Below are positions 4,972 through 62,631 of a stretch of 64,000 nt of DNA, in pieces. Under the pieces are notes generated by a model. It did no database searches. It saw nothing but the letters and a program-made list of their open reading frames with translations, and had not been told where the DNA came from. Position 1 is the first letter of the stretch. Every line of letters starts with the position of its first letter. Position numbers and translations under genes: made by a program. Source of the stretch: Torpedo marmorata (taxonomy: Eukaryota); NCBI GenBank assembly GCA_977017645.1, contig OZ360238.1:39308001-39372000 (forward strand). Reading direction: 5' to 3'.

Positions 4972-6472
4972 GGCGTCAGGCCCCGATGGCGAACCTGGCA
5001 GGGTACTGAAAATCTGCGCCAACCAACTAGCCGGAGTGTTCACGGACATTTTCAACCTCTCATCGCGGCAGTCAGAGGTTCCCACCTGCTTCAAAAGGGC
5101 ATCAATCATCCCCGGTACCCAAGAAGAGTAGTGTGAGCTACCTCAATGACTATCGCCCAGTAGCACTAACATCTACTGTGATGAAATGCTTTGAGAGGCT
5201 GGTCATGGCCAGAATTAACACATACCTAAGCAAAGATCTGGACCCACTACAATTCGCCTATCGTCACAATCGCTCCACAGCAGATGCAATATCGCTGGCT
5301 CTCCACTCAGCTCTGGATCACCTCGAAAACAGCAATTCATACATACGGCTGCTGTTCATTGACTGCAGCTCGGCCTTCAATACCATTATTCCCTCAGAGC
5401 TGGTCAAGAAGCTACAAACTCTAGGCCTCTGTACCCCCCTCTGCAACTGGATCCTTGACTTTCTCATTGGAAGACCACAGTCAGTATGAATTGGAAACAA
5501 CGTCTCCTCCTCACTGATTATCAACACAGACGCACCCCAAGGATGCATGCTTAGCCCACTACTCTCCTCGTTATACATCCATGACTGCGTGGCCAAGCAC
5601 AATTCTAATGCCATCTACAAGTTTGCCGATGACACCACAGTTGTCGGCAGAATCACAAACGGCAATGAGGAAGCGTACAGGAGGGAGATAGATCAACTCG
5701 TTGAATGGTGTAACGACAACAACCTTGCGCTCAATGTCAGCAAAATGAAGGAGATGATTGTGGACTTCAGGAGGAAGTCAGGGGAACACGACCCAGTCTT
5801 CATTGAGGGCTCAGTAGTGGAGAGGATCAAGAACTTCAAATTTCTGGGTGTCAACATCTCCGAGGATCTGTCCTGGAGCCTCCATGTTGATGCAATCACA
5901 AAGAAGGCTCGCCAGCGGCTATACTTTGTGAGGTGTCTGAGGATATTCAGTACGTCACCGAAGACTCTCGTAAACTTCTACAGGTGTACCGTGGAGAGCA
6001 TTCTGGCTGGATTCATCACTGTCTGGTATGGAGGCGCCAACTCTCAGGACAAGAATAAACTCCAGAGGGTTGTTAACTCGGCCTGTGACGTCACAGGCAC
6101 CAGACTTCACTCCATCGAGAACATCTACACAAGGCGGTGTCTTAAAAAAGCAGCCTCTATCCTCAAAGACCCCCACCACCCAGGCCATGCCCTCTTCACT
6201 CGGCTACCATCAGGAAAAAGGGACAGGAGCATAAAGTCGAGCACTCGACGGCACAAGGACAGCTTCTTCCCCGCTGCCATCAGATTCCTGAATAATCAAT
6301 GAACCAAAGACACTGCCTTACTTTTCGTGCACTATTATTTATATATTTTTTTATATAGTAATGTTGTAAGATGGTTATAATATGAATGTTTGCACTATGA
6401 TGCTGCCGCAAAATACCGAATTTCATGACTTGTTCATGACAATAAATTCTGATTCTGAATTCTGATTCTGAT
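4972..6472 (+). mobile_element. Rex1/Babar LINE family A, 5'-truncated, disabled
   Basis: [35 protein letters not shown]; frameshift near 5110-5130 and TGA at 5487-5489; (GATTCT)n tail. Confidence 0.92.
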
Positions 6473-7689
6473 TAGTGGATCTTCATTCAAAACTGAATGC
6501 AAAGGAATTCCCTTGCAGAGGGTGGTGAATCGCTAAAATTCTCTGCATTGGGGACTTGTGGAGGCTAGGTCACAAGGGATATTTAAAGAGGAAGTAGAGA
6601 ATGTGAAAGTTCCAGGCACTGAAGGCCATGGGGAGTTGGTATGGTAAGGGTATTGAGACCTGTGACAGATCGGCCATGACAATGAACGATGGGGCAGGCT
6701 TGTGGGGTTGAGAGATCGACTCCTGCTTTGATTTCCTTATGTTTTTCTGTTCTAACAAAGGTCAATGTTTTCCATTCATTTATGAGAGGTGGACATAACT
6801 GCACAGGCCAGCATTTCTTGGCTGTCCCTGACCCTCACCCAAACCCCTGAGAAAGTGGTGTTTAGTTGCCTTCCTAAGCCACTCCAATCCATGCACTGAC
6901 AATGTGGTATTGGAGCATCGCAATACTTAAAGTGCTTGTAGGAAATTATTTTTTTGCTTTAGGATTTTTTTTGTTTTCCCCCTCATCCGCCATTTTTGGA
7001 CCCGTAGATTCAATGGTGTTTCCTCTGAGGGAACATCAAAGTGCGTACTGAATTATGCAGCTTACTGTTTGATTAAAGGGTTTCCTTTAATCAAACAGTA
7101 TGGTGCATAGGATAGGTTTACTCCCATTTAACCCCTGGTGAAAAAAATTAAACTCTTACCATTTGGACAAAAGGCAATGAGGGTGTTTTCAATGAGGATC
7201 TTGTGTTTCCAATTGCCAAGACCCAATACCAAACACACCCCTTGATTCACCTCTGAAATGTGGAAACAGATTTGTGTTCCCTTTTGGACATGAAAACTTC
7301 AGAATGGATTCCCCAAATGGAATGCAAGAGAAAGGTTTTAAACATTTCAGTTGATATCAGTTCAAAAGCCAGGAAATTTATCTTGTCAGACCAAGGCCAA
7401 GAACAATTAGCAGATTAATCTCTTCCCAAGGTTAAAAAAAAAAGACATAATGTGAGTCTCTGATAGCTTAACAATCAATACTATTAAAACAAGAACAGAA
7501 TTTAAATGATTCAAAGGTCTTGGCTTAGAAGTTTAATTCTCAGTGCATGCTGTTGGAAAGGACATGAGGTGTTTAATTAACCTCCTCCATATAGAAATAA
7601 CACGGCTAACTGAACAAACTTGGATTAACAGTGACAGAAGTATCAAACAAATTCAGTGTTCATCCTGTACAACAAGCACAATGGAACGT

Positions 7690-8742
7690 TAGTTCAATTT
7701 CAAGTTCATTATCATCTGACTGTACATAGACAACCAGACAAAATAGTGTTTCTCTGGACCACGGTGCACACACATAAACACGCAATACACATACAATCAC
7801 ATACAGGTAGTCCCCAACTTACGACCATAATTGGGTCGAAAGGATCGGTCGTATCTCAGAATGGACTTAAGTCATAATTTTGCCCATGCACATGGAGTAC
7901 TGAAGTCTTAAAGCAAACTTTTTAATCAAATCTTTTTTTCATTGTAGATTCGACGATAACAACTTAAAGCTTCCTGAATTTGTCGATCAACCTTGGCGAG
8001 TCTTTCCACATTCTGGTCCATGCTTACCTTGTTTGTCGGCGTCCCGGGGTCCGTCGGCTGGGCGCGGCCAACTTGATTCCTGTGCGCACGCGTGAGTCTT
8101 TGTTGGCGCATGCGCATGTCTTCGGTTGGCGCATGCGCGGTGGGTTCACGTATTGGAGTTCGGTTGGCACATGCGTGAGAGTTAAGCGCCCTAATGATAT
8201 TGAATTTGCGCCCTTAACTCTCGCGCATGCGCCAACCGAACTCCAATACGCGAACCCACCGCACATGCGCCAACCGAAGACTTGCGCATGCGCACAGGAA
8301 TCAAGATGGCTCTTCATACTTGTAGAACCTTTTACAGCCTCACGTATTTTCTCTTTGTCCTTTAAAATTGTTGAAACGGTGGAATGAGACAATCTATCGG
8401 CAAGGGATAGGTTTTTCCTCTTGCTTGCCATCTTTCTAGCGTGCCTACAGAACAGCGACTGCGCGCCGGGCACAATATTGCACTATATTGCGCATGCGCG
8501 TATTTAAAAAAAAAAAAATTGGTCATATGTGTGGATGGACGTAGGTCGTAAGTCGGGGAGTACCTGTATATACATGAAGATACAATTTAAAATAAATATA
8601 TATAAATATTTTGGAGTGATTTACTCGATTACAGGATATTGTTCATCAATCTCACAGCCTGCGGGAAGAAGCTATTTCCCAGCCTGGCAGACCTGATTTG
8701 GATGCTCCTGCACCTCCTTCTTGATGGTCATGGGTCAAAGAT
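7690..8742 (-). mobile_element. 3' end of another Rex1-like LINE, split by a Tigger insertion
   Basis: The flanks of the Tigger element join into sequence matching 39497-39773 in reverse; tail aacttgaaattgaac. Confidence 0.7.
7804..8566 (-). mobile_element. Non-autonomous TcMar-Tigger/pogo element (internal-deletion derivative)
   Basis: TIRs CAGGTAGTCCCCAACTTACGACC / GGTCGTAAGTCGGGGAGTACCTG and TA TSDs (7802-7803, 8567-8568). Transposase remnants: N-terminal MASKRKNLSLAD..LSHSTVSTILKDKEKIREAVK and C-terminal MDQNVERLAKVDRQIQEALSCYRRIYNEKK. Confidence 0.9.
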
Positions 8743-11870: not shown

Positions 11871-12338
11871 TGCAGTCTACAGTGTTAACAGGTCATAACC
11901 TGGACTTTCCGATCAGTCTCACCATTCTCTGCCCAAAGGTCAGCTAATGGTATGTATCTTGTTCTGCACTTGTAAAACTGGTGTCACTGTCATGTTCGAA
12001 GAGTTTCTCAGCACTTGCTGCTGAGCTCAAAGGGAGAACAGAAAGTCTTGCATTCTTATTGCATCTTTGAGCGCCTCTGAATGTCCCTGAGCACTAAATC
12101 CATGATTGTGATGTTGGAAACACACAGCGCAGCAGGCTTCCATCATAAGTCGTAGAAAACAAACTATTTACACTCTCTTCTTCAAAAGAGAGTCTTAGAC
12201 AGGCATGTGGATGCAAGAAAAATAGAGGGTTATGAGTGTGAGGTAGGGATAGTTTAGAATGTTGAGTAGGTTATATAGGTCAGCAGAGCATCGTGGGCCA
12301 AAGGGCCTTACTGTGCTGGAATATTCGATGTTCTAAAG

Positions 12339-12714
12339 CAGTGGTTTTCAAACTGCCCCCCTAAACTCACATTCCACTTTAAGCAATCCCTATGCCATAA
12401 GTGCTCTGTGATTGGTAAGGGATTGCTTAAGGTGGTATGTGAGTGGGAAGGAAAGGTTGAGAACCACTGCTCTAGACCCAATTGTTACTGAAATATTTTG
12501 CTTGAGAAAAAATTGTCATTGGCCCATTTCCTTTGGAGTTATGAAACCGTGCACATAACGAGTCAATTAGGTACGATTAAAACAGTGGTTTTCAAACTTT
12601 TTCTTTCCACTCACATACCACCTTAAGCAATCCCTTACTAATCACAGAGCACTTATGGCATAGGGATTGCTTAAGGTGGAATGTGAGTTTATGGGGGCTG
12701 TTTGAAAACCACTG
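12339..12714. mobile_element. hAT (Charlie-like) MITE composite: two ~131-bp self-palindromic units flanking a 113-bp spacer
   Basis: CAGTGGTT...AACCACTG termini at 12339-12469 and 12583-12714; flanks ttctaaag, ctctagac and atctaaaa resemble the NTCTAGAN target. Confidence 0.85.
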
Positions 12715-13522
12715 ATCTAAAATAAGGCTCTGGAAACCATTGAGTCTACTTAACCTGGTTTAATGTGAAAGAGGGTGCCTCCAATGGTACAGCACGCTCC
12801 TGAACCCTCAGTAGAGTGTTACCCTATGATTTTATGTTAAAATCTCTGGAGTATGACATGACCTACAACCTTTCAAATATGTGATACTGCCACGCTTGAG
12901 GTTTCCCGCAAAGGCGAACAATGGGTCCTTGAGTCAGATACCAATTCAGTCTGTAACCAGGGGAAACCAGATTATTGGAGAAGGGGTGAGTGTGGAGGGG
13001 GTTGGGGAGAGCAGAAGTTGGGGAAAGGAGAGTTTGGGAAGAGAATTAAAAAAATAACAGTAAAGGAAAATCTCACAGTTCTCAGACAGCTGCTCTATGT
13101 CCTGCCTCTGATCCCAACTGTGTATAAGCAATGATGGAAATGCAATACTGAGCGACATTATCCTGGTACTGAAACATCACATCACAAAGCCTTGGGACAG
13201 ATGAAATATCAACGAAGCATATCAGAATGTAAACTATATCGAAAGGGGCAGGTTTTTTTATTCAAACAAGCTCTTAGGGTACAATAAATGATATGCCATT
13301 TGGATTACTTAGGATGAATTGAATTTCAAACAGTGCCCTGAAGATACAAGTGTTTTGGAAGATGTTTCGCTAATGGAATTTACATCTGTCTATTGCAAAT
13401 GAGGAAACTCATATCCGTGAACACCAAGCTGCAGAGGGCTTTTGATTCACTCCTGGCTCGGGAGAACGAGAGTACTTGGTGTCTGATGTATTCTGTGCAA
13501 AAAGGACATGAAGCAGAGGCAT

Positions 13523-16510: not shown

Positions 16511-16852
16511 GGCCTCTCAAAGCGCAACACTTTGGGATGTTGGGTATTTTTTCAATAATGCCCAGCTCACAGTAGACTCTGCTTCACTCCAGACACAGAA
16601 CTGATGTTCCAATGCATGATTTATCCGAATCATGTCGAGGAATATATATGCCAGAACACAGGAAGGCACAGGCCAGGAAGAGAACATCACAATCTGCTGG
16701 ATTAGCTCCACAGTTCACAGAGCAGCCGTGCCTCACACTCTTCAGAAACATCCTCTGCCCACTTGCCGACCACCCAGCAGGACTGCTCTGCAAAATAAAC
16801 CCTCTCGGTGAAGCTCAGCACAGTTTTCAGCGGGCAAGCAATGCTTCTGACT

Positions 16853-17108
16853 TTTTTTTTAAAATTTCCACATACAGCACTGTAACAGGCCCTTCCGGCT
16901 CATGAGCCCGTGCCGCCCAATTACACCAATTAGCCTACAACCCCCAGACGTTTTGAAGGATGGGAGGAAACTGGACAACCCGGGGAAAACGCATGCACGC
17001 AGACACGGGGAGAATGTAAAAACTCCATACAGACAGCGCCGGATTTGAACCCGGGGTTGCTGGCGCTGTAATAGCATTGCGCTAACCTCTGCACTAACCG
17101 TGCCGCCC
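16853..17108 (-). mobile_element. V-SINE (HE1-like)
   Basis: Full head and V-domain; A-rich tail at the 16853 end. Confidence 0.9.
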
Positions 17109-17900
17109 AATAGCCTTGCAGAAATGAATAGTCTTGCACAACAGTCAGTTCTTGGTTAAATGTGAGAAGAGGGACCATCACTCGGTGCTTTCCACTGATG
17201 GGAACTTTCAAACCATTCCCATCCAGGAACAATGATGGCAACACCAAAAACTCTGCATCTCAGCAGCCTCCAACTCCAGAAGAACACATAGAAGAACAGC
17301 CAGAAGTCATTTTCTCCTGTCCTGTAGTCCCGACTCTCTGGAGTGAAAGGTCAGCGCAGCACGATGGGCCAAAGGCTGGTCTATTCTATGTTCTTTGAAA
17401 GTCAACAGACTGTTGATTGGTGAAGGCCATCTCATTAGCTTGGATCTCTTCTCACCCAAACCCCCAGCCCCACACACTGCGCTCAACAGCTGATGTTGCC
17501 GGGACAAGCCTTTCGCTTGCAGGTCATACTGTCCATCAGCGATGTCACTTGAGGACCTCACCATTTGGCTGGTTGTTGCAAGAATTTGTGCAACAGGTCA
17601 ACAACGACTGACAAGATTAGGAGCAAGGAAAACAGGCATTAGACATCCAGTGGGGATGATTTGGATAACTCTCTGCACCGGGCCACCCGTATCAACAGCA
17701 GAAGGGAAACTGGTGACAAGTCCCAGGACTTGTTTTTCACAACTTTAAGAATTGACTGTTCTGCAAGACTATTCGAGTCAGAAGCATTGCTTGCCTGCTG
17801 AAAACTTGTCTTGAGCTTCACCGAAGGGGTTTTATTTTCTTGAAATAAAAAACAAATTCAAATGTACAACGGCGTCGGCGGCTTCCGCGCTCTCACTCAC

Positions 17901-18119
17901 CTCTGGGCTCTTCCGCTTGTTTGGCGAGTTTGCGGAGGGCAGCCGCGAAGCTGGCAGAGTGCGCTGACGGTACGGGTAAGGTGCTGTTAGCTGCCGGGCT
18001 GCCATTGGGCACCATGGAGCCATTGAGGGAGGAAGGGTTGAGGGGGCTTACGGTGGCTGTCGTCCGAGTCGCAGTCGAGATCATTCCTAGTGAAGGTGAC
18101 TTTGGCTCATGGCTCATGC
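17901..18119 (-). CDS. GSE1: Internal coding exon of genetic suppressor element 1 (GSE1-family coiled-coil protein), equivalent to human exon 2; 219 nt, phase 1-1
   Basis: Translation [41 protein letters not shown]...[17 protein letters not shown] closely matches the recalled vertebrate GSE1 N-terminus. Acceptor tcccctgacctctag|GCATG at 18120/18119 and donor AGAG|gtgagt at 17901/17900. Ortholog versus paralog cannot be resolved. The next exon (GSSLSSESSP...) was not found in the window. Confidence 0.92.
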
Positions 18120-18249
18120 CTAGAGGTCAGGGGAATACAAGGGGGAGGGGGTTGGGAAGAGGGGAGGGGGAGAAAAAGGAGAGAAGATTTAGATTAAAAA
18201 AAATACTAAATCCCCCTTCCTCAGCTCTCTGAAGCACATGATTTGTGTG

Positions 18250-21681: not shown

Positions 21682-22204
21682 TACTGCCCTGTGTTTAGCA
21701 GATTCCAAAGAACTTTACAACTGATGAATTACTTCTTGAATTTCAGTCATATAAGATGAGATGGCAGCCAATTTGTTGAAATACCTGTTCTCCAGGAAAA
21801 CAACAGCAAAAGTGATCAGTTCACCTCTCTTGGTGGTGTGTGGGTAAAAGGAAGCTGGTGGACATGGACAATGTCAGCAGTGCACTGTAGCTGGTGGAGT
21901 AGAGCTTAATAACAAAATACAATTAGCAAATGGAGATGGATTGTGTGAGAGTTGTGCACCATTAGCTGGCAGAGATGGGCTTCACAAGAGTGATGGAGAA
22001 AGAGAATGCAGAGGCCAGATAATTCATCCCCTGAGGCTCTCGAGCAGAATTGCTACATTTCACCCAAAGCAAACACAATGTAAGAAATCAGACTTTGTTA
22101 GCAAGCACAAACCAGCATCACAACCACATGCGGGAGAGGAGCGCATAACATGTCGTTGATAATCACACAACCTCTTAAAGCCGGTGATGAAAGAAAAATC
22201 TTCA

Positions 22205-22907
22205 AACCCCTCTGAATGACCACCCTCCACTACACATCAATAACTCTATAGTGGAGAGGGTAGAGAGCACCAAGTTCCTTGGAGACCACTTAACAAGTGA
22301 CCTATCGTGGACACACAACATCTCCTCACTTGTCAGGAAGGTGCCACAGCAACTGCACTTCCTGAGAAGACTGAAGTGGGCAAGGCTACTGGCCACCATC
22401 ATGTCAACCTTTTACAGGAGCTCTATTGAGAGCGTCCTGGCCGGCTGCATCACAGTGTGGTACAGTTGCTGCGGAGAAATGGATCGGAGGTCAAACCACA
22501 GGACCATAATCGACGTGATCTACTGGGTTTGTGGTCTGAAGAAGGCGCGCAAAATCATTGAGGACCCCCACCAACCCGCACACAGCATCTTTCAGCTACT
22601 CCCATCGGGAAAAGGATACAGAAGTATCAGAGAAAGCACCACCACGCTGAGAAACAGCTTCTTCCCACGGGCAGTGAGAATGCTGAACGACCAAAGGAAC
22701 TGCTCACACTAACCATCCAAGACTCTCATATTAACAAAACAATATTTATTTATTTTTATATATGTATATTTGTCCTGCGTATGTATTGATTATCTGTATG
22801 TGTGTTATTTCTGGCTTTGTGTTTGCATGTTTTGCACGGAGGACTGCAGAATGCTGTTTTGTCAGGATGTACTTGTGCAATTGAATGATAATAAACTTGA
22901 ACTTGAT
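22205..22907 (+). mobile_element. Rex1-like LINE family B, 3' fragment
   Basis: Peptide VERVESTKFLG.HLTSDLSW...FYRSSIESVL...RNSFFPRAVRMLN; tail AATAAA(CTTGAA)n. Confidence 0.88.
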
Positions 22908-25255: not shown

Positions 25256-25301
25256 TGACTTCCAAAAAAGATTTAAAAGACAATGATAAAATTACAATGA
25301 T

Positions 25302-26043
25302 ATGACAACAACCTTGCGCTCAACGTCAGCAAAACCAAGGAGATGATTGTGGACTTCAGGAGGAAGTCAGAGGAACACGACCCAGTCCTCATCGAGGGTT
25401 CAGTAGTGGAGACGGTCAAGAACTTCAAATTCCTGGGTGTCAACATCTCCGAGGATCTGTCCTGGAGCCTCCACATTGATGCAATCACAAAGAAGGCTTG
25501 CCAGCGGCTATACTTTGTGAGGTGTCTGAGGAGATTCGGTATGTCACCGAAGACTCTCGTAAACATCTACAGGTGTACCGTGGAGAGCATTCTGGCTGGT
25601 TGCATCACTGCCTGGTATGGAGGCGCCAACTCTCAGGACAAGAATAAACTCCAGAGGGTTGTTAACTCGGCCTGTGACATCACAGGTACCAAACCTCACT
25701 CCATCGAGGACATCTACATGAGGCGGTGTCTTAAAAAAGCAGCCTCTGTCCTCAAAGACCCCCACCACCCAGGCCATGCCCTCTTCACTCTGCTACCATC
25801 GGGAAAAAGGTACAGGAGCCTAAAGTCGAGCACTCGACGGCACAAGGACAGCTTCTTCCCCACTGCCATCAGATTCCTGAATAACCAATGAACCAAATAC
25901 ACTGCCTTACTTTTCGTGCACTATAATTTATATTTTTTTATGGTAATGTCGTAAGATGGTTATAATATGAATGTTTTCACTATGATGCTGCTGCAAAACA
26001 CCGAATTTCATGACTTGTTCATGACAATAAATTCTGATTCTGA
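25302..26043 (+). mobile_element. Rex1 family A, 5'-truncated
   Basis: [17 protein letters not shown]...FLNNQ plus the family A tail. Confidence 0.92.
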
Positions 26044-26379: not shown

Positions 26380-26622
26380 GTTAGCATAGTGGTTAGGACA
26401 ACACTGTTACAGCACCAGCGATCGAGACCGGGGTTCGTATCCCACGCTGTCTGTAAGCAGTTTGTACGTTCTCCCTGTATCTGCGTGGGTTTTCCCTGGG
26501 GGCTCCTGTTTCCTCTCACCGTTGAAAACGTACCGGGTGTTGTCGGTCAATTGGGTATAATTGGGCGGCATGGGCTTGTGGGCCGAAAGGTCCTGTTACC
26601 GTGCTGTATATCTAAAAAAAAT
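26380..26622 (+). mobile_element. V-SINE
   Basis: Consensus match. Confidence 0.85.
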
Positions 26623-26829: not shown

Positions 26830-27090
26830 TCAGCATGGTTGGCATAATGGTTAGCGCAAAGCCTTTACAGCACCAGCGATCGGGACTGGACCGGGGTTCA
26901 AGTCCCGCGCTGTCTGTAAGGAGTTTGTATGTTCTCCCCGTGTCTGCGTGTGTTTTCTCTGGGGGCTCCGGTTTCCTCCCACCGTTCAAAACGTACCGGG
27001 GGTATAGATTAATGGAGTGTAAATTGGGTGGCACGAACTCGTGGGCCGAAATGGCCTGTTACCGTGCTGTATGTCTAAATTTAAAATTTT
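26830..27090 (+). mobile_element. V-SINE (subfamily with an extra insert before the B box)
   Basis: cagcgatcgggactggaccggggttcaagtcc head; a similar variant occurs at 31199. Confidence 0.88.
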
Positions 27091-30830: not shown

Positions 30831-31198
30831 AAACTCTTGCTCTAAGTTCAACAGCCCCTCGACACTCACACTTTGATTCTCTATCTCTCTCAGACTTGCC
30901 ATCTCCTCACTGGCATCAACCAGTCTTTTGGGTTAACATGGGGATGTGGAGGCCGTAATTGCTTTCCACAGCAGAAATCTTGCATTTGGGCAGAAACTGG
31001 GGGTTTCCACAGGACATCCCTCAGAGTGGAAGACAGCCTGAGCAGAGTTCTCTCCTGCTCTTTGTCCAGGCCCCCTCTACTATCAGCCAAGGCAGCGCTG
31101 GTGTCGACAACCACAGAAGAGGCGGCAGCTATTGAGAGGATGAGAGGAGCGGTTCTGATGGCGGAGGCTGGAATGACAGGGAGAACGCCACAGCTAAT

Positions 31199-31410
31199 GG
31201 GGCGGCACGGTTGGCATAGCGGTTAGCGCAATGCCTTTACAGCGCCAGCGATTGGGACCGGACCTGGGTTCGAATCCCACGCTGTCTGTAAGGAATTTGT
31301 ACGTTCTCCCCTTGTCTGCGTGGGTTTTCTCCGGGGGCTCCGGTTTCCTCCCACCCTTCAAAAACGTACCGGGGTGTAGGTTAATGGAGTGTAAATTGGG
31401 CGGCACGGAC
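31199..31410 (+). mobile_element. V-SINE, 3'-truncated
   Basis: Consensus match. Confidence 0.88.
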
Positions 31411-32185
31411 AATGGGAGATAGAGCACCAAGAGTCAGGACAATTATGGCATTTACAGATGTTGCTCTCACTAGGATTATCGTTTTAATTTGCAAATGTAC
31501 TAAAATGCCAGAAACCCAGTTTGAACATTGTCATAATTAATAGTTCACCTGTTGTTTGACTAACATGTAGTTTTCTTAAAAACGTATAATTCAAAATGGT
31601 GCTAGAGAGAACTATCCTTATGCGGGGGGCCTGGATAGCATGCATAACTAAGCTTTCCACCATATCTCTGTGCACGTGGCAATAAATTAAATAAACTAAA
31701 CTATGAATCTTACACTGCTCAGCAAAATGTATTGGATCAGAGCTGCCAGCTTAGCTCAGTTTGTCGAATTTTCACCACTCACTCACAATGAAGTAGTTTC
31801 AATCTTCCTTGGTTTGAGTGTTGACTCTTGGCTACCATTTAATTGCTTCATTGTCGGAGACACTGGCTCCTAACCAAGGTTGCACTCCCTCTGGTGCTAT
31901 TTGGGAGCAGGCCAATGAACTCCCTTAAAATCCACATGATGGCTCATTCATCTCATTGCTCTTTGGGAGAATCTTGCCGTGCTAAAATAGTAGAGGTTTG
32001 TATGCATAACAACATTGACTGCAATTCAATGCATACAAAGCTGCTCTTCTGAACCCTGTGCTAAGAATCACTGCAACAGTTTTAAAATTCAGACTCTCCT
32101 CATTCAACTGGAGACAGTCAGCCATCGATGTCAGTCTGCCAGTTCTGGTCTCTCTTAATGTGGCAGCTGTTGCTTTAAATTTGGA

Positions 32186-34935
32186 AACCAAGGAACTGAT
32201 TGCGGACTTTAGGAAGGGGAAACCATAAGAACACAAACCAATCCTCATCGAGGGGTCAGCAGTGGAAAGTGAAAATAATTTCAAATTCCTGGGTTTCCAA
32301 GGTGTCAACATCTCTGAAGATCTATCCTGGGGCCATCACGTTGATGCAATCATGAAGGAGGCATGCCCGCAGCTATACTTTGTGAGGCGTTTGAGGAGAT
32401 TTGGTATGTCAACAAAGACTCTTGCAAATTTCTACAGGTGTACTGTGGAGAGCATTCTGGCTGGATGCATCACTGTCTGGTGTGGAGGTACAAATGCACA
32501 GGACAGGAAATGGCTACAGAGAGATGTGAACTCAGCCAGCGCTATCATGGGCATTAGTCTTCACTCCATTAAGGACATCTACAAGAGGTCAGGTCAATCT
32601 GAAGAAGTCACTGACAAATTACCACCAACACATCACTTGCGAGACCAGGGGAACCAACACACTCGACCACTGCTACACCACCGTGAAGAACGCATACCGA
32701 GCCATACCACGACCGCACTTCGCAAGTCTGATCACCTGGCTGTACTTCTACTCCCGGCGTACAAGCAGAGACTGAAGACCACAGCACCAGTGGTGAGGAT
32801 GGTGAAAATATGGTCGAGGGGGGCGGAGGAACGTCTGCAGGACTGCTTTGAATCGGTGGACTGGAACATATTCAAGTACTCAGCCATAGACCTAAATGAA
32901 TATGCAACAGGTGTCACCGACTTCATCAAGACCTGCGTGGAGGAGTGTGTGCCCACACGCAAATACCGGGTGTTCCCCAACCAGAAGCCCTGGATGAATC
33001 AGAGAATTCGCAACCTGCTGAGGACGAGAACAAGGGCGTTTAAGGCCGGGGACCGGGATCTTTACAAAAAGTCCAGGCACGACCTGCGGAAGGCCATCTC
33101 TGAAGCAAAGTGGCAATTCCGGAGGAAGCTAGAGACAGAGACAGATACATGCCAGTTATAGCAGGGAGTGCAGGCCATTACAGCCTACAAAGCAAGAGCG
33201 AACACTATAGACGGTTGTGATGCTTCACTACCCGATGAGCTGAACACCTTCTATGCCCGCTTTGAGAAGAAGAACAAAACAGTGCCTACTAGAATCCCTG
33301 AAAAGGCTGAGGACCCTGTGATATCTGTCTCTGAGGGCGACGTCAGAACATCATTCAAGAGGGTGAACCCTCGCAAGGCGACCGGCCCTGACGGCGTACC
33401 TGGCAGGGTATTGAAACTCTGCGCCAACCAACTAGCCGGAGTGTTCACGGACATTTTCAACCTCTCATTGCGGCAGTCAGAGGTTCCCACCTGCTTCAAA
33501 AGGGCATCAAACATCCCGGTACCCAAGAAGAGTAGTGTGGGCTGCCTCAACGACTACCGCCCAGTAGCACTAACTTCTACTGTGATGAAATGCTTTGAGA
33601 GGCTGCTCAGGGCCAGAATTAACACATACCCAAGCAAAGATCTGGACCCACTGCAATTCGCCTATCGCCACAATCGCTCCACAGCAGATGCAATATCGCT
33701 GGCTCTCCACTCAGCTCTGGATCACCTCGAAAACAGCAATTCATACATACGGCTGCTCTTCATCAACTACAGCTCGGCCTTCAATACCATTATTCCCTCA
33801 GTGCTGGTCAAGAAGCTACAAACTCTAGGCCTCTGTACCCCCCTCTGCAACTGGATCCTTGACTTTCTCATCGGAAGACCACAGTCAGTACGAATTGGAA
33901 ACAATGTCTCCTCCACACTGATTATCAACACAGGCGCACCCCAAGGATGCGTGCTTAGTCCACTGCTCTACTCGTTATACACCCATGACTGTGTGGCCAG
34001 GCACAATTCCAATGCCATCTACAAGTTTGCCGATGACATCACAGTTGTCGGCAGAATCACAAACGGCAATGAGGAAGCGTACAGGAGGGAGATAGATCAG
34101 CTCGTTGAATGGTGTAATGGCAACAACCTTGAGCTCAACGTCAGCAAAACCAAGGAGATGATTGTGGACTTCAGGAGGAAGTCAGGGGAACACGACCCAG
34201 TCCTCATCGAGGGCTCAGTCATGGAGAGGGTCAAGAACTTCAAATTCCTGGGTGTCAACATCTCCGAGGATCTGTCCTGGAGCATCCACGTGGATGCAAT
34301 CACAAAGAAGGCTCGTCAGTGGCTATACTTTGTGAGGTGTCTGCGGAGATTCGGTATGTCACCAAAGACTCTCGTAAACTTCTACAGGTGTACCGTGGAG
34401 AGCATTCTGGCTGGTTGCATCACTGCCTAGTATGGAGGCGCCAACTCCCAGGACAAGAGTAAACTCCAGAGGGTTGTTAACTCGGCCTGTGACATCACAG
34501 GCACCAAACGTCACTCCATCGAGGACATCTACATGAGGCGGTGTCTTAAAAAAGCAGCTTCTATCCTCAAAGACCCCCACCACCCAGGCCATGCCCTCTT
34601 CACTCTGCTTCCATCGGGAAAAAGGTACAGGAGCCTAAAGACGAGCACTCAATGGCACAAGGACACCTTCTTCCCCGCTGCCATCAGATTCCTGAATAAT
34701 CAATGAACCAAAGACACTGCCTTACTTTTCGTGCACTATTGTTTATAATTTTTTATAGTAATGTCGTTAGATGGTTAATATGAATGTTAATTGCACTATG
34801 ATGCTGCCGCAAAACACCGAATTTCATGACTTGTTCATGACAATAAATTCTGATTGTGAGGTGATGTCTCAAGAAAGTAACCTCTATCCTCAAGGACCCT
34901 CACCACCCAGGCTATACCCTCATTGCTACCATCGA
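32186..34935 (+). mobile_element. Older Rex1-like fragment (32186-32589 plus 34858-34935) split by a family A copy
   Basis: KTKELIADFRKG...SLHSIKDIYKR continues after the insert as [14 protein letters not shown]. Confidence 0.8.
32590..34857 (+). mobile_element. Rex1 family A, longest copy (end of endonuclease, RT and 3' UTR), disabled
   Basis: [64 protein letters not shown]; stops at 33159-33161 and 34428-34430; 5-bp TSD gaggt (32585-32589, 34858-34862). Confidence 0.93.
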
Positions 34936-36224: not shown

Positions 36225-36460
36225 AAAAACGAAAGTCTGCAGACACTGTGATTGTAGTAAAAGCACACAGAAATGCTGGAGGAACTCATCCAGTCTCGCA
36301 GCATCCATAGGAGGTAAAGATATATTACAGACGCTTCAGGCCTGAGCCCTTAACATTTCAGTTCATAGGGTCTGATGTAGGGAGTCAGCCTGAAATGTTG
36401 CCTCTCTTCCTTTTTCCGTGGATCCATTTTCTGGATTCTTTTCTGCATTTGCATTCTTAT
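36225..36460. mobile_element. Penelope-derived ends in opposed arrangement
   Basis: The left part matches 50188-50310; the right part reads ctgatgtagggagtcagcctgaaatgtt. Confidence 0.7.
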
Positions 36461-44180: not shown

Positions 44181-44597
44181 ACATGCTTTGAAGTAGCATT
44201 GCTTCCCATTGGCCACAGGATCACGGCAACTTTTAATGTGTTTGGTGGTGCAAGGTGTCAAGTAGGGAAAGAGACAAGAAGTGGAAGATACCACCCTGTG
44301 AATAATTCAAACTGTTTCACAACCTCCTCCCCCTGCACCTAATCTCGGAATCCAGTGCAGACAGCATGTCTCAGATATAATGAGCAAGGCTGTTATCGAA
44401 TAACATTGGGCTGGAGGGAGACTCAATGACGCTTCACTTCTGAACAACTACCACATGAAACCCCATGCTGGCCAATACTTCAGCGGAAATGTTATTCTAC
44501 AAACTACATTAAAATTGTTCCACAGCTGCATGAATTCAGAGCTTTGAGACACCAGTGGAGAGGTGATGGCCATCCTTCACAGGTGAATAAAGCCCTC

Positions 44598-45449
44598 CAG
44601 TGGTGGGTGTACAGAGCCCACAGTGGTGGGTATAGAGAGCCCACAGTGGTGGGTGTACAGAGCCCACAGTGGTGGGTGTACAGAGCCCACAGTAGAGGGT
44701 GTAGAGAACCCACAGTGGTGGGTGTAGAGAGCCCACAGTAGAGGGTGTACAGAGCCCACAGTAGAGGGTGTACAGAGCCCACAGTGGTGGGTGTAGAGAG
44801 CCCACAGTGGTGGGTGTAGAGAGCCCACAGTGGTGGGTGTACAGAGCCCACAGTGGTGGGTGTAGAGAGCCCACAGTAGAGGGTGTACAGAGCCCACAGT
44901 GGTGGGTGTAGAGAGCCCACAGTGGTGGGTATAGAGAGCCCACAGTGGTGGGTGTACAGAGCCCACAGTGGTGGGTGTAGAGAGCCCACAGTAGAGGGTG
45001 TACAGAGCCCACAGTAGAGGGTGTACAGAGCCCACAGTGGTGGGTGTACAGAGCCCACAGTAGAGGGTGTACAGAGCCCACAGTAGAGGGTGTAGAGAGC
45101 CCACAGTGGTGGGTGTAGAGAGCCCACAGTGGTGGGTGTAGAGAGCCCACAGTGGTGGGTGTAGAGAGCCCACAGTGGTGGGTGTAGAGAGCCCACAGTG
45201 GTGGGTGTAGAGAGCCCACAGTGGTGGGTGTAGAGAGCCCACAGTGGTGGGTGTAGAGAGCCCACAGTGGTGGGTGTAGAGAGCCCACAGTGGTGGGTGT
45301 AGAGAGCCCACAGTGGTGGGTGTAGAGAGCCCACAGTGGTGGGTGTAGAGAGCCCACAGTGGTGGGTGTAGAGAGCCCACAGTGGTGGGTGTAGAGAGCC
45401 CACAGTGGTGGGTGTAGAGAGCCCACAGTGGTGGGTGTAGAACATCCAC
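44598..45449. repeat. 23-bp minisatellite, about 37 copies (CACAGTGGTGGGTGTAGAGAGCC)
   Basis: Read directly; the 23-aa period in the ORF track corresponds to three units. Confidence 0.97.
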
Positions 45450-46369
45450 AGGAATATGTAGAAAAAGCTCTAGTCTTGAGAAAGGATCCTAAACCAAACA
45501 GCTGACTGTTCATTTCTCTGAGTCCTTCCAGCTCCTTTTTGTTTGCTCAAGATTTCAGAATCTGCAGTTCTTGTGTTTCTCTGAGCCACTCTCTCCTGTT
45601 GGTCTGTGGCATCATCACAATATCACAGTGAAATACTCTTACTTGGTAAAATTTAAAAAAAATAATAATAGAGGTGGAGTATTTTATTTTTCAGTACTTG
45701 TGCTTCAGATGTGCACAAGATATTATGAATGACCTGCTGACAACACATACAAAGTGTATAATGTATGGTGCTTTTAAGCACACAGGCTTATATAGGACCC
45801 ACCTCCTGCTCTCGAAGCTCTCAGTTATCCAATTAACACTGGGTCCTGAGAGCCTCAGATAATCAGAAGTCTATTGTAATTAAACAGGATTACATTGAGG
45901 AATATTAGAAGTGCCAACATTGGTTAACTCTAGAATATACATTAAACATTCATGGCCACTGCTGTTTGTCCAAACACTGTAAACGCTTCAGATGTAGCAG
46001 ATTACTGAGACAGACTATCGAAAGAGGATCAAACACAATTTACTGAGGAAGGCATTGAAAGGGCCCCAACTGGCCAATAATCCTCCTGTTATTTGCTCAT
46101 CATGAATATTATTATTTCTCCATACAGAAATCGTCATTCACTGCTCCTGCTAATTAAAAGTGGGCTCATAGCAGCAGGAAGCTTCATTTTGAATCATTTA
46201 TATATTTTATTAATGCTAACTGGAATATTTTCACAGGTGTTTAGATCTGGGTTGTGCTCTGCACTGATTTGAGACTCAAGTTGAATTGGGAGGTAAGTGG
46301 TACTGGGAGGATCTCTGAGTGAATGGACTGAGGAATGCTTGCTAGTTACTGGCTGAGGAGGGGGTGTTC

Positions 46370-50187: not shown

Positions 50188-50408
50188 CACGAAAGTCTGC
50201 AGACACTGTGATTGTAGTAAAAACACTCCGAAATGCTGGAGGAACTCAGTCGGTCTTTCAGCGTCCATAGGAGGCAAAGATATATTGCTGACGTTTCAGG
50301 CCTGAGCCCTTCTTCAAGGAATATTCTTAAACGTCGGCAATATATCTTTGTCTCCTATGGACGCTGAAAGACCGACTGAGTTCCTCCAGCATTTCGGAGT
50401 GTTTTTAC
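50188..50408. mobile_element. Penelope-derived fold-back element within a CR1 remnant
   Basis: 80-bp inverted arms at 50217-50296 and 50329-50408 with two mismatches; PLE end sequence. Confidence 0.85.
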
Positions 50409-59032: not shown

Positions 59033-61814
59033 CATTGATTTGGACAGATCCATATTATCTACCCATTGATTTACCATAGTAGTAAGTGTGAGAGGGGGGG
59101 ATGGGGAAGGGGAAAGGTCTTGCTGTCTGACGGGATACATAACAAACCTACTAGAAATCATTCTCTGTGTGTGATGCATCCATTTGGCTGACTATGAGAT
59201 TATCTGATACGGTAACCTGCGCTGCCATGGTCATTTACAGTCCAATTGACAACAAGCCTGCTGCCACAACTGATTTTCTTCCACTTGCTGTCCTCCTTTC
59301 GCTGCTTTCATTATTCGTCAAGTTTTGTTTGACAATTCCAAATACTCTTAAAATACTCCTTCTGTTTCCTGGATAGTGAAAGGGATGAGAGAAGCATTTT
59401 GCATTGAGGAGGTGCTTTGTAAATGGAGTCAATAGCTGGTCTGTAAAAAGATATTCTCACAGAGTCCTTCACATGCCTTCTACAATGAAAATCAGATCAT
59501 TGCAAATGCTTCTGTAAAATGTTCAATGAAAGTCAATGGTGCCAGATACAGGGTGCCCTTATAAAGGTTTAAACTCCAGAGCATTTTTTAACATAGTAGA
59601 TCATGTTTCTTATCTGTATCAGATGGGGTAATGTGATGAGATACCAACCCTTCACCTACGAGACTTGGTTCAGAATCAGCCTGTCCCCGATTGGCAGAGA
59701 TCTGGTGAAAGGATCGCCATGCAAGCTGCCACAATCTAAGCCCTGGTGGACGCAGACTCAACTACACAAAGCCCTTCCTGAGTCGCTCAGGCTCATTTCT
59801 TCAACGTCAAAGCCCCCACTTCAGCGACAAGTACAATAATCCATCTGGCAACCACCACTGAGGCAGAGTGTTACACTGTCCGCCCAGCCAAAAGTATAAG
59901 ACTGTGTGGTACGGCAGGTATGAATAGGATTCTTGTTGGCCTAGCCAAAATTCACCCCTCAACCATAGTTACAAAACAAGATTATTAAACCATTATGTAA
60001 AGATAAGAGGGTTATGAGTGTGAGTTGGAAAGGATTAGATTGTTGTGGAGTAGGTTTACACAGGTCGGCACCACATCGTGGGCCAAAGGACCTGTTCTGT
60101 GCTGTAGTGTTCTATGATCTATTATTGCATTGTGAAATCTTGCTCTGCACACTGGCTGCAATATGTTTTCGCACACCATGAAGACATTCTATCTGTGCAA
60201 ATCTTTCTTTCCCAGCTTATGTCTGGAGAATCTTGTACTTGGGGATCAGGGAGCCCCATTCCAATTGTTGTCCGTCCTCAAAATGTGTTTGCATGGCCAG
60301 AACGGATGTGATGCATCCCTTGGCCAGAGAGATTTCAGAAAGTCAGGACCAAAGAGGAACATCCTCACATTCTGATGTGGATATCTTGAGCTAACTTGTG
60401 TCCGCTTAAATTTATGGAGAATTGCGTTCAAATCTTCTGCCCCTCCTCACCCCACTGCGGCTCACCACATTCAATCAGTTTTCAAGGATGGCAGTGAATT
60501 CTGAGTAGGCCCAAGCTCCCGAACTGCTGGAGTTCTGGTCGCTGTTTCTGAGGCCCATCACTCATTTCCAATGGTCTAGAGACACGGCCTGTGCTCCTGC
60601 TCGGCTGCTCCTCGGAGGTATGGGCATTCCCAAAAAGAGGAACCTGCTGGAGTCTGCATCAGCAATTTTGGGAGGATCAGGAGTGGGCGGAGAGATTCTG
60701 AAAGCCACAAATTAGAGGAAAGAGCAACATTTCCTTTCCAGAATTGTGAAGTTTACACAGGAAACCATCGTCTGGTGAAATAAACAACAAACATGCCAAA
60801 GTGAGCAGGAGCAGTGGGGTGGTGAGGAAATGAAGAACACCCTTCGCTAGGCAAATACAAATGACCAAATAATACGCTTGGCCAATGGAGATAATGAAGT
60901 TTTCATGTTATTGATTGTTCTGGTGACTTGTGCCTCTTATTATCAGGATGGTATCCATTTATTTGTGCCGTTTCAGCCAGCCGAATCCTTTTCCTCTTTA
61001 AAACGATAAGCCCACAAGCACTGACTCAATCAATTCAGGCTTAATGCACTGCACGAGCCTGCAGATGGTACCAGAAGGCAGGCTGGGTTTATCTCGGAGT
61101 AAGGGATGAACACTGGCAATGCTGCAGATTTTTTGTGTGCATTTTGATTTTGCTAATAATCAGGCCATCTGTTTGCAATCGATTGCCTGCCCTGCTCTTG
61201 CGTTCAGCCATCCGGCAAGACGTCACCTGGATTTCGAGCGGATCGGTGTGGACCCATCTCCAGTGGCCAGGGTCAGAGCTCTTCCCCCCCCCCCCCCCAC
61301 TTCCCAGCATCTCCCACTCCTCCCCACCCCTGGCCAGAATCTCTCCACTTTTTAAAATTCATCTTATAGCAAGGTTACATAAAATTCAGAGGGCAGAGGG
61401 GAGGGAGAGAGGGCTGCAGTGCAGGGATGACAGCAGGCAGATTTTGCACGCTGCAGATGTGGACAAGACGTGGCACGCGTAACCATTCACTGCAGTCAAG
61501 GCATTCCTGCTCACTCATTGATCACTTGTGTAAGGAATGGGGTCTTGCGCTTCAGAACAGGCATCGAAAAGGTCCAGAAGATGGTGAGATGGAGTCCGGT
61601 GGAAAGGTGTCCCTCATCTGATGCCAGAGAGTGACCACTGCTGGCTGTCTCCAATGAAGACTGAGTTATACAGCATGGGAACAGGCCCAGGGAACCCACA
61701 CTGGCCAAAAAGCACCCATAGATGTTATTCCTACACTAATCCCATTTTATTCTCTCCACATCCCAATCACCTCCCCTCAGCTTCCACTACTCGATTGTAC
61801 AATGGGAGCAACTA

Positions 61815-62631
61815 ATTCAAGATTCCTTTATTGGAATGTAATAGCACAGAACATGTAATATTACACAAAATTGCCTTCTGCCTGCCATAAGGTAGGCGAA
61901 GAGTCACCATTAGTGTTGCCCGGTTCCAGGAAGAGAGAAAGAGAAGCAAAAGTGTCACTGAGTTTTCGTGGATTCGCCTCCAGTGCTCCCGCAGTCTCTG
62001 CAGCTGCACAGACTCTTGTTCGATCCATTGGCAACCTGAGATCCAGATCCAGACCTCCTTCACCAGTGGTTTACAACCTTTTCTTTCCACTCACATAATA
62101 CCACCTTAAGTAATCCCTTACTAACCACAGACCACCTATGGCATACCGGTTCTGATACCTAGTTCCCATGAGCCAGTCTCCAGCAGCCCGCAGCCCACGT
62201 GGGTTCCCCGACCGCTAGTCGCCCACAGCCTGTGTGGGTCCCTCCGCTGCTGAGCCCCTCGCTGGTCTCCCACCCTGGTCACCATCCTGTAGGGTCTTCT
62301 CCTTCTCAACGGTGGGGTGGGTGGGGGAGGAGGGGGGTATTCTCCCCGTTTCTGGTGCCCTGCGCCAATCCACTGTTCCCCCGGAGTCTGCAACCCCTTG
62401 TGGCCGCTGATGAGCCCAGGTGCCACCATCTTGGGCACAGACCTGTGGTTGCAGGATTTTACTTACAAACACCGTCAGCTCCTCTAACTGTCAGCCTGTA
62501 CGGAGCCATCGGCATTAGGACCAGGTGGTTGAACCCTCCGGAGCAGCGCTGTGTCCCCACTCCCCACTCTCTCGGGTCCACACCGGCGACAGTGCTGCTG
62601 TTACAGCAGCTCCGGCGATGCCGCCATTTTT
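61815..62631 (-). mobile_element. Family X, apparently full length, with a hAT half-MITE inside
   Basis: Begins AAAAATGGCGGC on the minus strand; colinear with 38681-39491; tail caataaaggaatcttgaa. Confidence 0.8.
62064..62144 (+). mobile_element. Partial copy of the hAT MITE unit seen at 12583-12714
   Basis: cagtggtttacaacctttttctttccactcacat..accaccttaagtaatcccttactaa..cacctatggcata. Confidence 0.8.

What the first reader, a model, noticed from the sequence alone, without database searches (positions are those of the whole stretch)
16792..17838. Hidden ~90-bp inverted repeat starting about 63 nt into the intron after the GSE1 exon, one arm split by a SINE
Arm B (17747-17838) is the reverse complement of arm A (16792-16852 plus 17126-17153): aaaataaaccc..tcggtgaagctca..agttttcagc(g/a)ggcaagcaatgcttctgact [V-SINE] gaatagtcttgca(c/g)aacagtca(g/a)ttctt. 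Weaker similarity continues inward. It matches no other repeat in the window and predates the SINE. In the minus-strand pre-mRNA it would form a duplex next to the donor with some A-C mismatches, the geometry ADAR favours. It could modulate splicing or back-splicing. The motif aatag(c/t)cttgca is also duplicated on one side of the SINE (17109-17139).
Basis: partly seen in the sequence, partly recalled or inferred. Interest (0 to 1): 0.7.

Follow-up and report, generated by a model that had tools for sequence, protein, structure and literature searches.

The report
Local inverted duplication in GSE1 intron
A 90-base stretch of a ray's GSE1 intron was copied backwards about 600 bases away and later hit by a mobile element; it could fold into a hairpin in the RNA, but it looks like a replication accident rather than a conserved regulator.

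Summary
The inverted repeat is real: arm B 17747-17838, arm A 16792-16852 plus 17126-17153, 5 substitutions in 88 paired columns, far above shuffles. It starts 63 nt into the intron after a 219-nt GSE1 exon of a cartilaginous fish. The claimed inward extension is not significant. It is not a high-copy MITE: in two related genomes a single contig covers arm B, against 117-128 (capped) on the SINE. A relative about 2% diverged has both arms and the SINE tail. A relative about 9.5% diverged has arm B collinear with exon and spacer, with arm B no more conserved than the spacer (6/35 versus 27/311). No compensatory change was seen, and the traceable A-C mismatches look like ordinary C-to-T changes. 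Both arms lie downstream of the exon, the wrong geometry for promoting back-splicing; nearby SINE pairs give longer duplexes. Best reading: a locus-specific inverted duplication by template switching, later split by a SINE, neutral or nearly so (0.6). One result against this: the arms are more alike than the SINE's apparent age predicts (P 0.007-0.26), so homogenisation or selection is not excluded. Editing and circularisation were not tested.

The parts
17901..18119 (-). GSE1 coding exon, 219 nt, the only GSE1 exon found in the window; same length as the human exon that gives circGSE1
   Evidence: AG/GT ends and length; homologues named genetic suppressor element 1 at 96-100% in rays and sharks; tblastn of three full proteins hits only this exon; human interval in PMC9207376
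17747..17838 (-). Arm B, uninterrupted, intron bases 63-154; present and collinear with the exon in organisms A and C
16792..16852 (+). Arm A, outer part (inverted copy of 17776-17838)
   Evidence: covered by X1 record 1
16853..17108 (-). tRNA-type SINE with A-rich tail inserted in arm A, no target-site duplication; 21 of 221 positions differ from a majority of 8 other window copies
17109..17125 (+). Extra partial copy of the start of the inner arm (14 of 15 match to arm B), at the SINE 5' junction only
   Evidence: (pair I10)
17126..17153 (+). Arm A, inner part (inverted copy of 17747-17774)
   Evidence: covered by X1 record 7
17154..17746 (.). 593-nt spacer, unique apart from a short retroelement tail; no self-complementarity beyond chance; 17413-17746 collinear with the exon in organism C
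17348..17394 (+). Short retroelement 3'-tail fragment in the spacer
   Evidence: weak matches to 12277-12334 and 60062-60117, E 0.008
17400..17418 (.). Near-perfect 19-nt palindrome; the X5 and X14 pieces both begin at 17413 inside it

Best explanation
A locus-specific inverted duplication. During replication or break repair the growing strand near 16792/17153 switched to the opposite strand about 600 nt away, copied about 90 nt of what is now arm B backwards and returned (template switch, MMBIR-type templated insertion). A SINE then inserted into the new copy; the 17-nt extra copy at its 5' junction is a slip-and-restart from that insertion or from the same repair event. The arms have since drifted without compensation, perhaps with some arm-to-arm homogenisation. 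In the pre-mRNA they probably do pair, as a passenger duplex among stronger SINE-derived ones, with no selected role. Shown: the repeat, its two-copy nature, the SINE inside it, sharing with organism A, collinearity and ordinary divergence of arm B in organism C. Inferred: the direction B to A, the template-switch mechanism, the timing, neutrality.
For: Two copies only in the window. Sharp ends, no inward or outward extension. Organism C: one contig spans 17413-18129 on one strand; arm B 6 substitutions in 35 nt versus 27 in 311 in the spacer, Fisher p 0.12, not lower. 0 of 5 arm mismatches are G-U in the pre-mRNA; 17796 fits CpG decay; at 17752 organism C has the letter that pairs with arm A, so the A of that A-C pair looks like a later change in this lineage. 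Arm divergence 5.7% (CI 1.9-12.8) lies between the distance to A (2.1%) and to C (9.5%). In X16 the exon differs at 13 of 238 yet the same contig is unlike the window from 11 nt past the donor (tables 7-8). Such events are known germline variants: PMC8421209 section 10, PMC7954356 passages.
Against: The SINE differs from the local majority at 14 of 189 non-CpG sites (7.4%; 5.3% without 4 shared with other copies). If arm A is older than the SINE, neutral arms should differ by 10.6-14.8%; 5 of 88 has P 0.085-0.007, and 7 of 89 under another alignment P 0.26-0.038. The majority comes from only 8 mixed copies and the arm ends were chosen for high identity, so this is a hint, but it points to homogenisation or constraint. 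No empty site was seen in any relative, so insertion of arm A and junction microhomology are not shown. A 600-nt jump is longer than the 'tens to hundreds' of the short-range model. The conservation count covers only 35 of 92 arm B bases because the table was cut (75 rows hidden).
Confidence: 0.6

Rival explanations
1. A selected pre-mRNA duplex of a ray clade: the arms pair co-transcriptionally just past the donor, are edited by ADAR and tune linear splicing against back-splicing of the 219-nt exon.
For: Predicted pairing 0.88-0.92. Starts 63 nt from the donor of an exon whose human counterpart circularises. Arms more alike than the SINE's age predicts. At 4 of 5 paired sites where organism C differs, the window's two arms agree with each other (p 0.19). 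Both arms kept in organism A.
Against: Arm B not conserved above the spacer in organism C, with two 1-nt gaps as well. No G-U and no compensatory change among 5 mismatches. A 256-nt SINE plus 17 nt was tolerated in the middle of one arm. Both arms are in one intron, which the review PMC6965350 (figure legend) links to linear joining. The donor's predicted partners lie in the exon and change with the folded window. No Rfam match to E 1.
Confidence: 0.15
2. Breakpoint scar of an old micro-inversion made by staggered breaks: the 593-nt spacer was flipped and the 90 nt at the break were duplicated in inverted orientation.
For: Geometry fits (unique inverted duplicates flanking a unique segment; the model is recalled, no call). 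Two-copy nature.
Against: Spacer 17413-17746 is collinear with the exon in organism C, so the inversion would have to predate that split, and the arms should then differ by 9.5% or more; observed 5.7-7.9% (P 0.15-0.38, not excluded).
Confidence: 0.13
3. Remnant of a rare non-autonomous DNA transposon, 16792-17838, with 90-bp terminal inverted repeats.
For: Long inverted ends around a 600-nt core; the window has other palindromic elements with further copies (12331-12722, 50217-50408). A TA lies a few bases inside both outer ends.
Against: Arms 92-94% alike imply that other family copies would be well above the 80% cut-off, yet one contig covers arm B in X1 and in X5. No duplicated target at the outer ends by inspection. 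Spacer has no other copy in the window.
Confidence: 0.1

Closest known systems
Templated inverted insertions from template switching (MMB-TI, PMC8421209; four-point model, PMC7954356)
   Same: A nearby sequence is copied in reverse complement and leaves a two-copy inverted repeat; multi-step events exist; found as germline variants.
   Different: About 90 nt copied over about 600 nt, longer than typical short-range events; no ancestral empty site seen; later split by a SINE.
[quoted passage not shown]
   Same: Intronic, under 10 kb apart, far below -15 kcal/mol.
   Different: PCCRs lie in conserved intronic regions; arm B is not conserved above its neighbours in the one informative relative, and is much longer.
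Reverse-complementary matches flanking circularised exons, e.g. Alu pairs around human circGSE1 (PMC9207376)
   Same: Next to the same-length GSE1 exon; ADAR-type duplex possible.
   Different: Both arms are downstream of the exon. The local analogues of the Alu pairs are oppositely oriented SINE and LINE fragments on either side (16 matches), including the SINE inside arm A.
MITEs
   Same: Inverted ends around a non-coding core of under 1 kb.
   Different: Not multi-copy, no clear target duplication.

Membership tests
MITE / non-autonomous DNA transposon | Terminal inverted repeats | tested here: met
MITE / non-autonomous DNA transposon | Many similar genomic copies | tested here: not met
   One contig on arm B in X1 and in X5 at 80% likeness against 117-128 (capped) on the SINE; related species, not the window's own genome; a few copies are not excluded
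MITE / non-autonomous DNA transposon | Target-site duplication | tested here: inconclusive
   None outside the outer ends by inspection; a TA inside both ends cannot be told from the repeat itself
MITE / non-autonomous DNA transposon | Empty orthologous site | tested here: inconclusive
   No joint across the element among the 15 listed, 120 hidden
Conserved complementary regions (PCCR) | Stable pairing within 10 kb in one intron | tested here: met
   -91.0 and -37.5 kcal/mol
Conserved complementary regions (PCCR) | Arms conserved above background | tested here: not met
   6/35 versus 27/311 in organism C; only 35 of 92 bases of arm B countable
Conserved complementary regions (PCCR) | Compensatory substitutions | tested here: inconclusive
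   None seen, but no diverged genome gave both arms
Conserved complementary regions (PCCR) | A-to-I editing or structure probing support | not testable with these tools
   Only contigs were on offer, no raw RNA reads
circRNA-promoting reverse-complementary match | One arm on each side of the exon | tested here: not met
   Both arms lie below 17900; the arm motif has no third copy in the window
Templated inverted insertion (MMB-TI / template switch) | Reverse-complement copy of a nearby unique template | tested here: met
Templated inverted insertion (MMB-TI / template switch) | Copy absent from the ancestral allele | tested here: inconclusive
   No outgroup contig spans the arm A site
Templated inverted insertion (MMB-TI / template switch) | Junction microhomology | not testable with these tools
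   Needs the empty allele
V-SINE (the insert) | Central V domain | not tested
   Resemblance recalled only; multi-copy tRNA-type SINE anatomy shown

The most novel reading that the evidence does not exclude
A duplex born by a replication accident was captured in one ray lineage as a brake on circularisation of the GSE1 exon: it is kept matched by selection or conversion (arms younger-looking than the SINE inside them), is edited at its A-C mismatches, and loops out the SINE so that it competes with or presents it to upstream SINE partners.
Probability: 0.12. Interest if true: 0.6.

Novelty: new member of a known kind. Interest (0 to 1): 0.2.

Why it matters
Most likely it matters little: one dated example of a local inverted duplication in a cartilaginous fish intron, usable with the SINE as a clade marker. 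If the arms prove conserved and edited, it would show a splicing-relevant RNA duplex arising from scratch beside an exon known to circularise in humans, and would be a simple minigene test of same-intron versus cross-exon pairing outside mammals.

Tried and rejected
No genome is held for this window, so copy number was read from relatives' contigs only. No RNA holder listed on record; none of the 20 holders had half the words, and I laid 4 of 21 runs, all as contigs, none guessed to be RNA: editing, expression and back-splicing are untested. Arm A has no cover in X5 (bin 16756-16807 is 0), but its flanks are mostly uncovered too and a filter drops records, so this proves nothing; likewise the missing exon in X1. 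Short unlisted pieces in X14 (depth 14-33 over 16704-16859; a 35-nt piece at about 17823-17857) and in X5 (low depth at 17120-17275 and near 17743) could not be identified. X14 looks mixed (two exon contigs, 6/202 and 25/141 differences), so it is not an independent witness. Metagenome scans: arm pattern 0 hits, exon peptide 0 of 596 candidates confirmed; without a control for cartilaginous-fish DNA these are uninformative. Rfam 0 matches to E 1; Pfam 0 for the exon peptide. Inward extension rejected. Reading 17109-17125 as a target-site duplication rejected: it lies on one side only; of 7 SINE copies checked only one (21428) shows a possible 6-nt duplication. A piggyBac-type TTAA end was considered by inspection and is not present. 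Donor sequestration by the repeat rejected. Earlier findings: 4 look-ups, nothing. Literature: a search for GSE1 + intron + inverted repeat + RNA structure listed 10 of 48 papers; in the two of them that I opened the term was a data-set accession or absent; a search on circular RNA or editing in elasmobranchs listed 9 papers, none on this locus by title and abstract start. Supplementary catalogues (PCCR lists, bioRxiv supplements) were not read.

Full report
Observation. Window BLAST gives 17776-17838 against 16852-16792 at 88.9% (E 4e-16) and 17747-17774 against 17153-17126 at 26 of 28. Scores of 88 and 46 exceed the maxima of 1000 shuffles, 30 and 32. With the SINE left out the arms pair over 88 columns with 5 substitutions and 4 gap columns, plus one base of arm B without partner at the SINE site; another equally plausible alignment of the outer end gives 7 of 89 (counted by hand, used). 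The claimed inward continuation is not above chance (p 0.28-0.98; 0.23-0.70), and nothing continues outward.

Context. The exon at 18119-17901 (minus strand, AG/GT, 219 nt) encodes a peptide 96-100% identical to proteins named genetic suppressor element 1 in rays and sharks, and it is the only GSE1 exon that three full-length homologues find in the window. Human circGSE1 comes from the second exon, chr16:85667519-85667738, with Alu elements in both flanking introns (PMC9207376, two passages seen); the interval has the same length. That it encodes the same peptide is my recall, not a call. Arm B begins at intron base 63.

The insert in arm A. 16853-17108 is a SINE on the minus strand with 11 other hits in the window. 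It has no target duplication; instead 17109-17125 repeats the start of the inner arm on the 5' side only. I read this as a slip-and-restart at the junction (inference). The V-SINE label rests on recalled resemblance; passages of PMC5499810 and PMC6887750 gave general SINE anatomy only.

Copy number. No genome is held, so I laid contigs of four public runs from related organisms on 16600-18130 at 80% likeness. At the listed arm B positions the whole depth equals one contig in X1 (record 7) and one in X5 (record 31), while the listed SINE positions carry 117-128 contigs (128 is the cap) in these two runs. Only 3 of 33,431, 5 of 16,878, 1 of 2,055 and 0 of 31 laid records fit two places. Arms still 92-94% alike would belong to a family whose other copies pass 80%, so a high-copy MITE is unlikely; a few copies are not excluded, since contigs drop variants and a filter removes records.

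Orthologues. Organism A (X1; 22 substitutions in 1,070 nt, 2.1%) has record 1 across 16600-16919, covering outer arm A and the SINE tail, and record 7 across 17105-17885, covering inner arm A, spacer and arm B: repeat and insertion are shared. Organism C (X5) has one contig over 17413-18129 on one strand, so exon, arm B and the right part of the spacer are collinear. Of its 54 substitutions 33 are listed, all between 17464 and 17781; I take that stretch as complete, which is an assumption because 75 rows were hidden. They give 27 in 311 for the spacer and 6 in 35 for arm B (Fisher p 0.12), plus 1-nt gaps at 17797 and 17834. Arm B is thus no more conserved than its neighbours in the part that can be counted. 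Of the 5 paired sites, C matches arm A at one (17752) and differs from both window arms at four; 1 versus 4 does not date the duplication (p 0.19). In X16 a contig matches the exon at 225 of 238 and goes on with 94 unlike letters from 11 nt past the donor.

RNA reading. The arms pair in the predicted ensemble (0.88 outer, 0.92 inner; the extra copy 0.0). The mismatches are 3 A-C and 2 G-G in the pre-mRNA and would be G-U on the other strand, which pairs slightly better. 17796 fits C-to-T at a CpG and 17752 is a C-to-T relative to organism C and arm A, so the 'ADAR geometry' is what ordinary transitions give. The donor's predicted partners are exonic and unstable to the choice of window. Both arms are in one intron; a figure legend of the review PMC6965350 (passages seen) ties that geometry to linear joining. 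Across the exon there are 16 reverse-complementary matches between the 15-kb flanks, three of them through the SINE inside arm A, and in the downstream 15 kb the repeat ranks ninth of 12 printed inverted matches by bit score. Whatever editing or circularisation occurs here has stronger candidates. None of it was measured.

Result against my reading. The SINE differs from the majority of 8 other window copies at 14 of 189 non-CpG sites. If it inserted into an existing arm A, neutral arms should differ by twice 5.3-7.4%. The observed 5 of 88 has P 0.085-0.007, and 7 of 89 has P 0.26-0.038. The majority is crude and mixes subfamilies, and the arm ends were chosen for identity, so I count this as a hint. 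It fits arm homogenisation by template switching, which is described for inverted repeats (PMC8604942, passages seen, for much shorter spacers), a duplication and insertion close in time, or constraint.

Mechanism. The simplest account is a template switch that copied about 90 nt of the intron start in reverse about 600 nt downstream, followed by SINE insertion. Inverted templated insertions, including multi-step ones, are documented as human germline variants (PMC8421209, section 10 part 1 read), and template switching is said to generate inverted repeats that fold stably as a by-product (PMC7954356, passages seen). The direction, the junction microhomology and the date are inferred, since no relative showed the empty site. 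I give this 0.6, a selected duplex 0.15, a staggered-break inversion scar older than the split from C 0.13, and a rare transposon 0.1.

Comparison and novelty. It works like any intronic inverted repeat: it can form a duplex. It fails the conservation feature of PCCRs (definition from passages of PMC8052449), the copy-number feature of MITEs and the geometry of circle-promoting matches. No Rfam family matches. It is a new instance of a known kind, interest 0.2.

Noticed in passing
window 12331-12722: Nested palindromic element (128-nt arms at 92%, each with an inner inverted pair); part recurs at 62064-62145. MITE-like, the strongest inverted match in the downstream intron.
   Followed up: partly
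window 50217-50408: Near-perfect hairpin, 83-nt arms at 96%, with related sequence at 36230-36351 and 2213-2341; MITE-like.
   Followed up: partly
window 8067-8310: Palindrome with 90-nt arms 8 nt apart, no other copy in the window, overlapping an ORF fragment (8024-8482, minus) that resembles a transposase start (recalled, not tested).
   Followed up: no
window 7054-7109: 26-nt arms 4 nt apart, 92% complementary, no other copy in the window.
   Followed up: no
window 17400-17418: Near-perfect 19-nt palindrome; pieces from X5 and X14 both start at 17413, suggesting a structural difference there in those organisms.
   Followed up: partly
window 16704-16859: Unlisted X14 contigs of depth 14-33 lie here, left of and on the outer end of arm A; could be a conserved element or chance short matches.
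   Followed up: no
window 16853-17108 with 26849-27086, 26380-26609, 31197-31408: The SINE inside arm A has oppositely oriented partners upstream of the exon (76-77% over 217-242 nt), the local analogue of the Alu pairs around human circGSE1.
   Followed up: partly
window 31982-34706: Long reverse-transcriptase-like ORF fragments of a LINE (310 and 422 aa), with shorter relatives at 5031-6302, 25301-25891 and 22191-22712; label from inspection.
   Followed up: no
window 44500-45550: Minisatellite giving 300-aa repeat ORFs on both strands.
   Followed up: no
window 16777-16790 with 16718-16731: 14-nt inverted pair just outside the outer end of arm A; may be chance.
   Followed up: no
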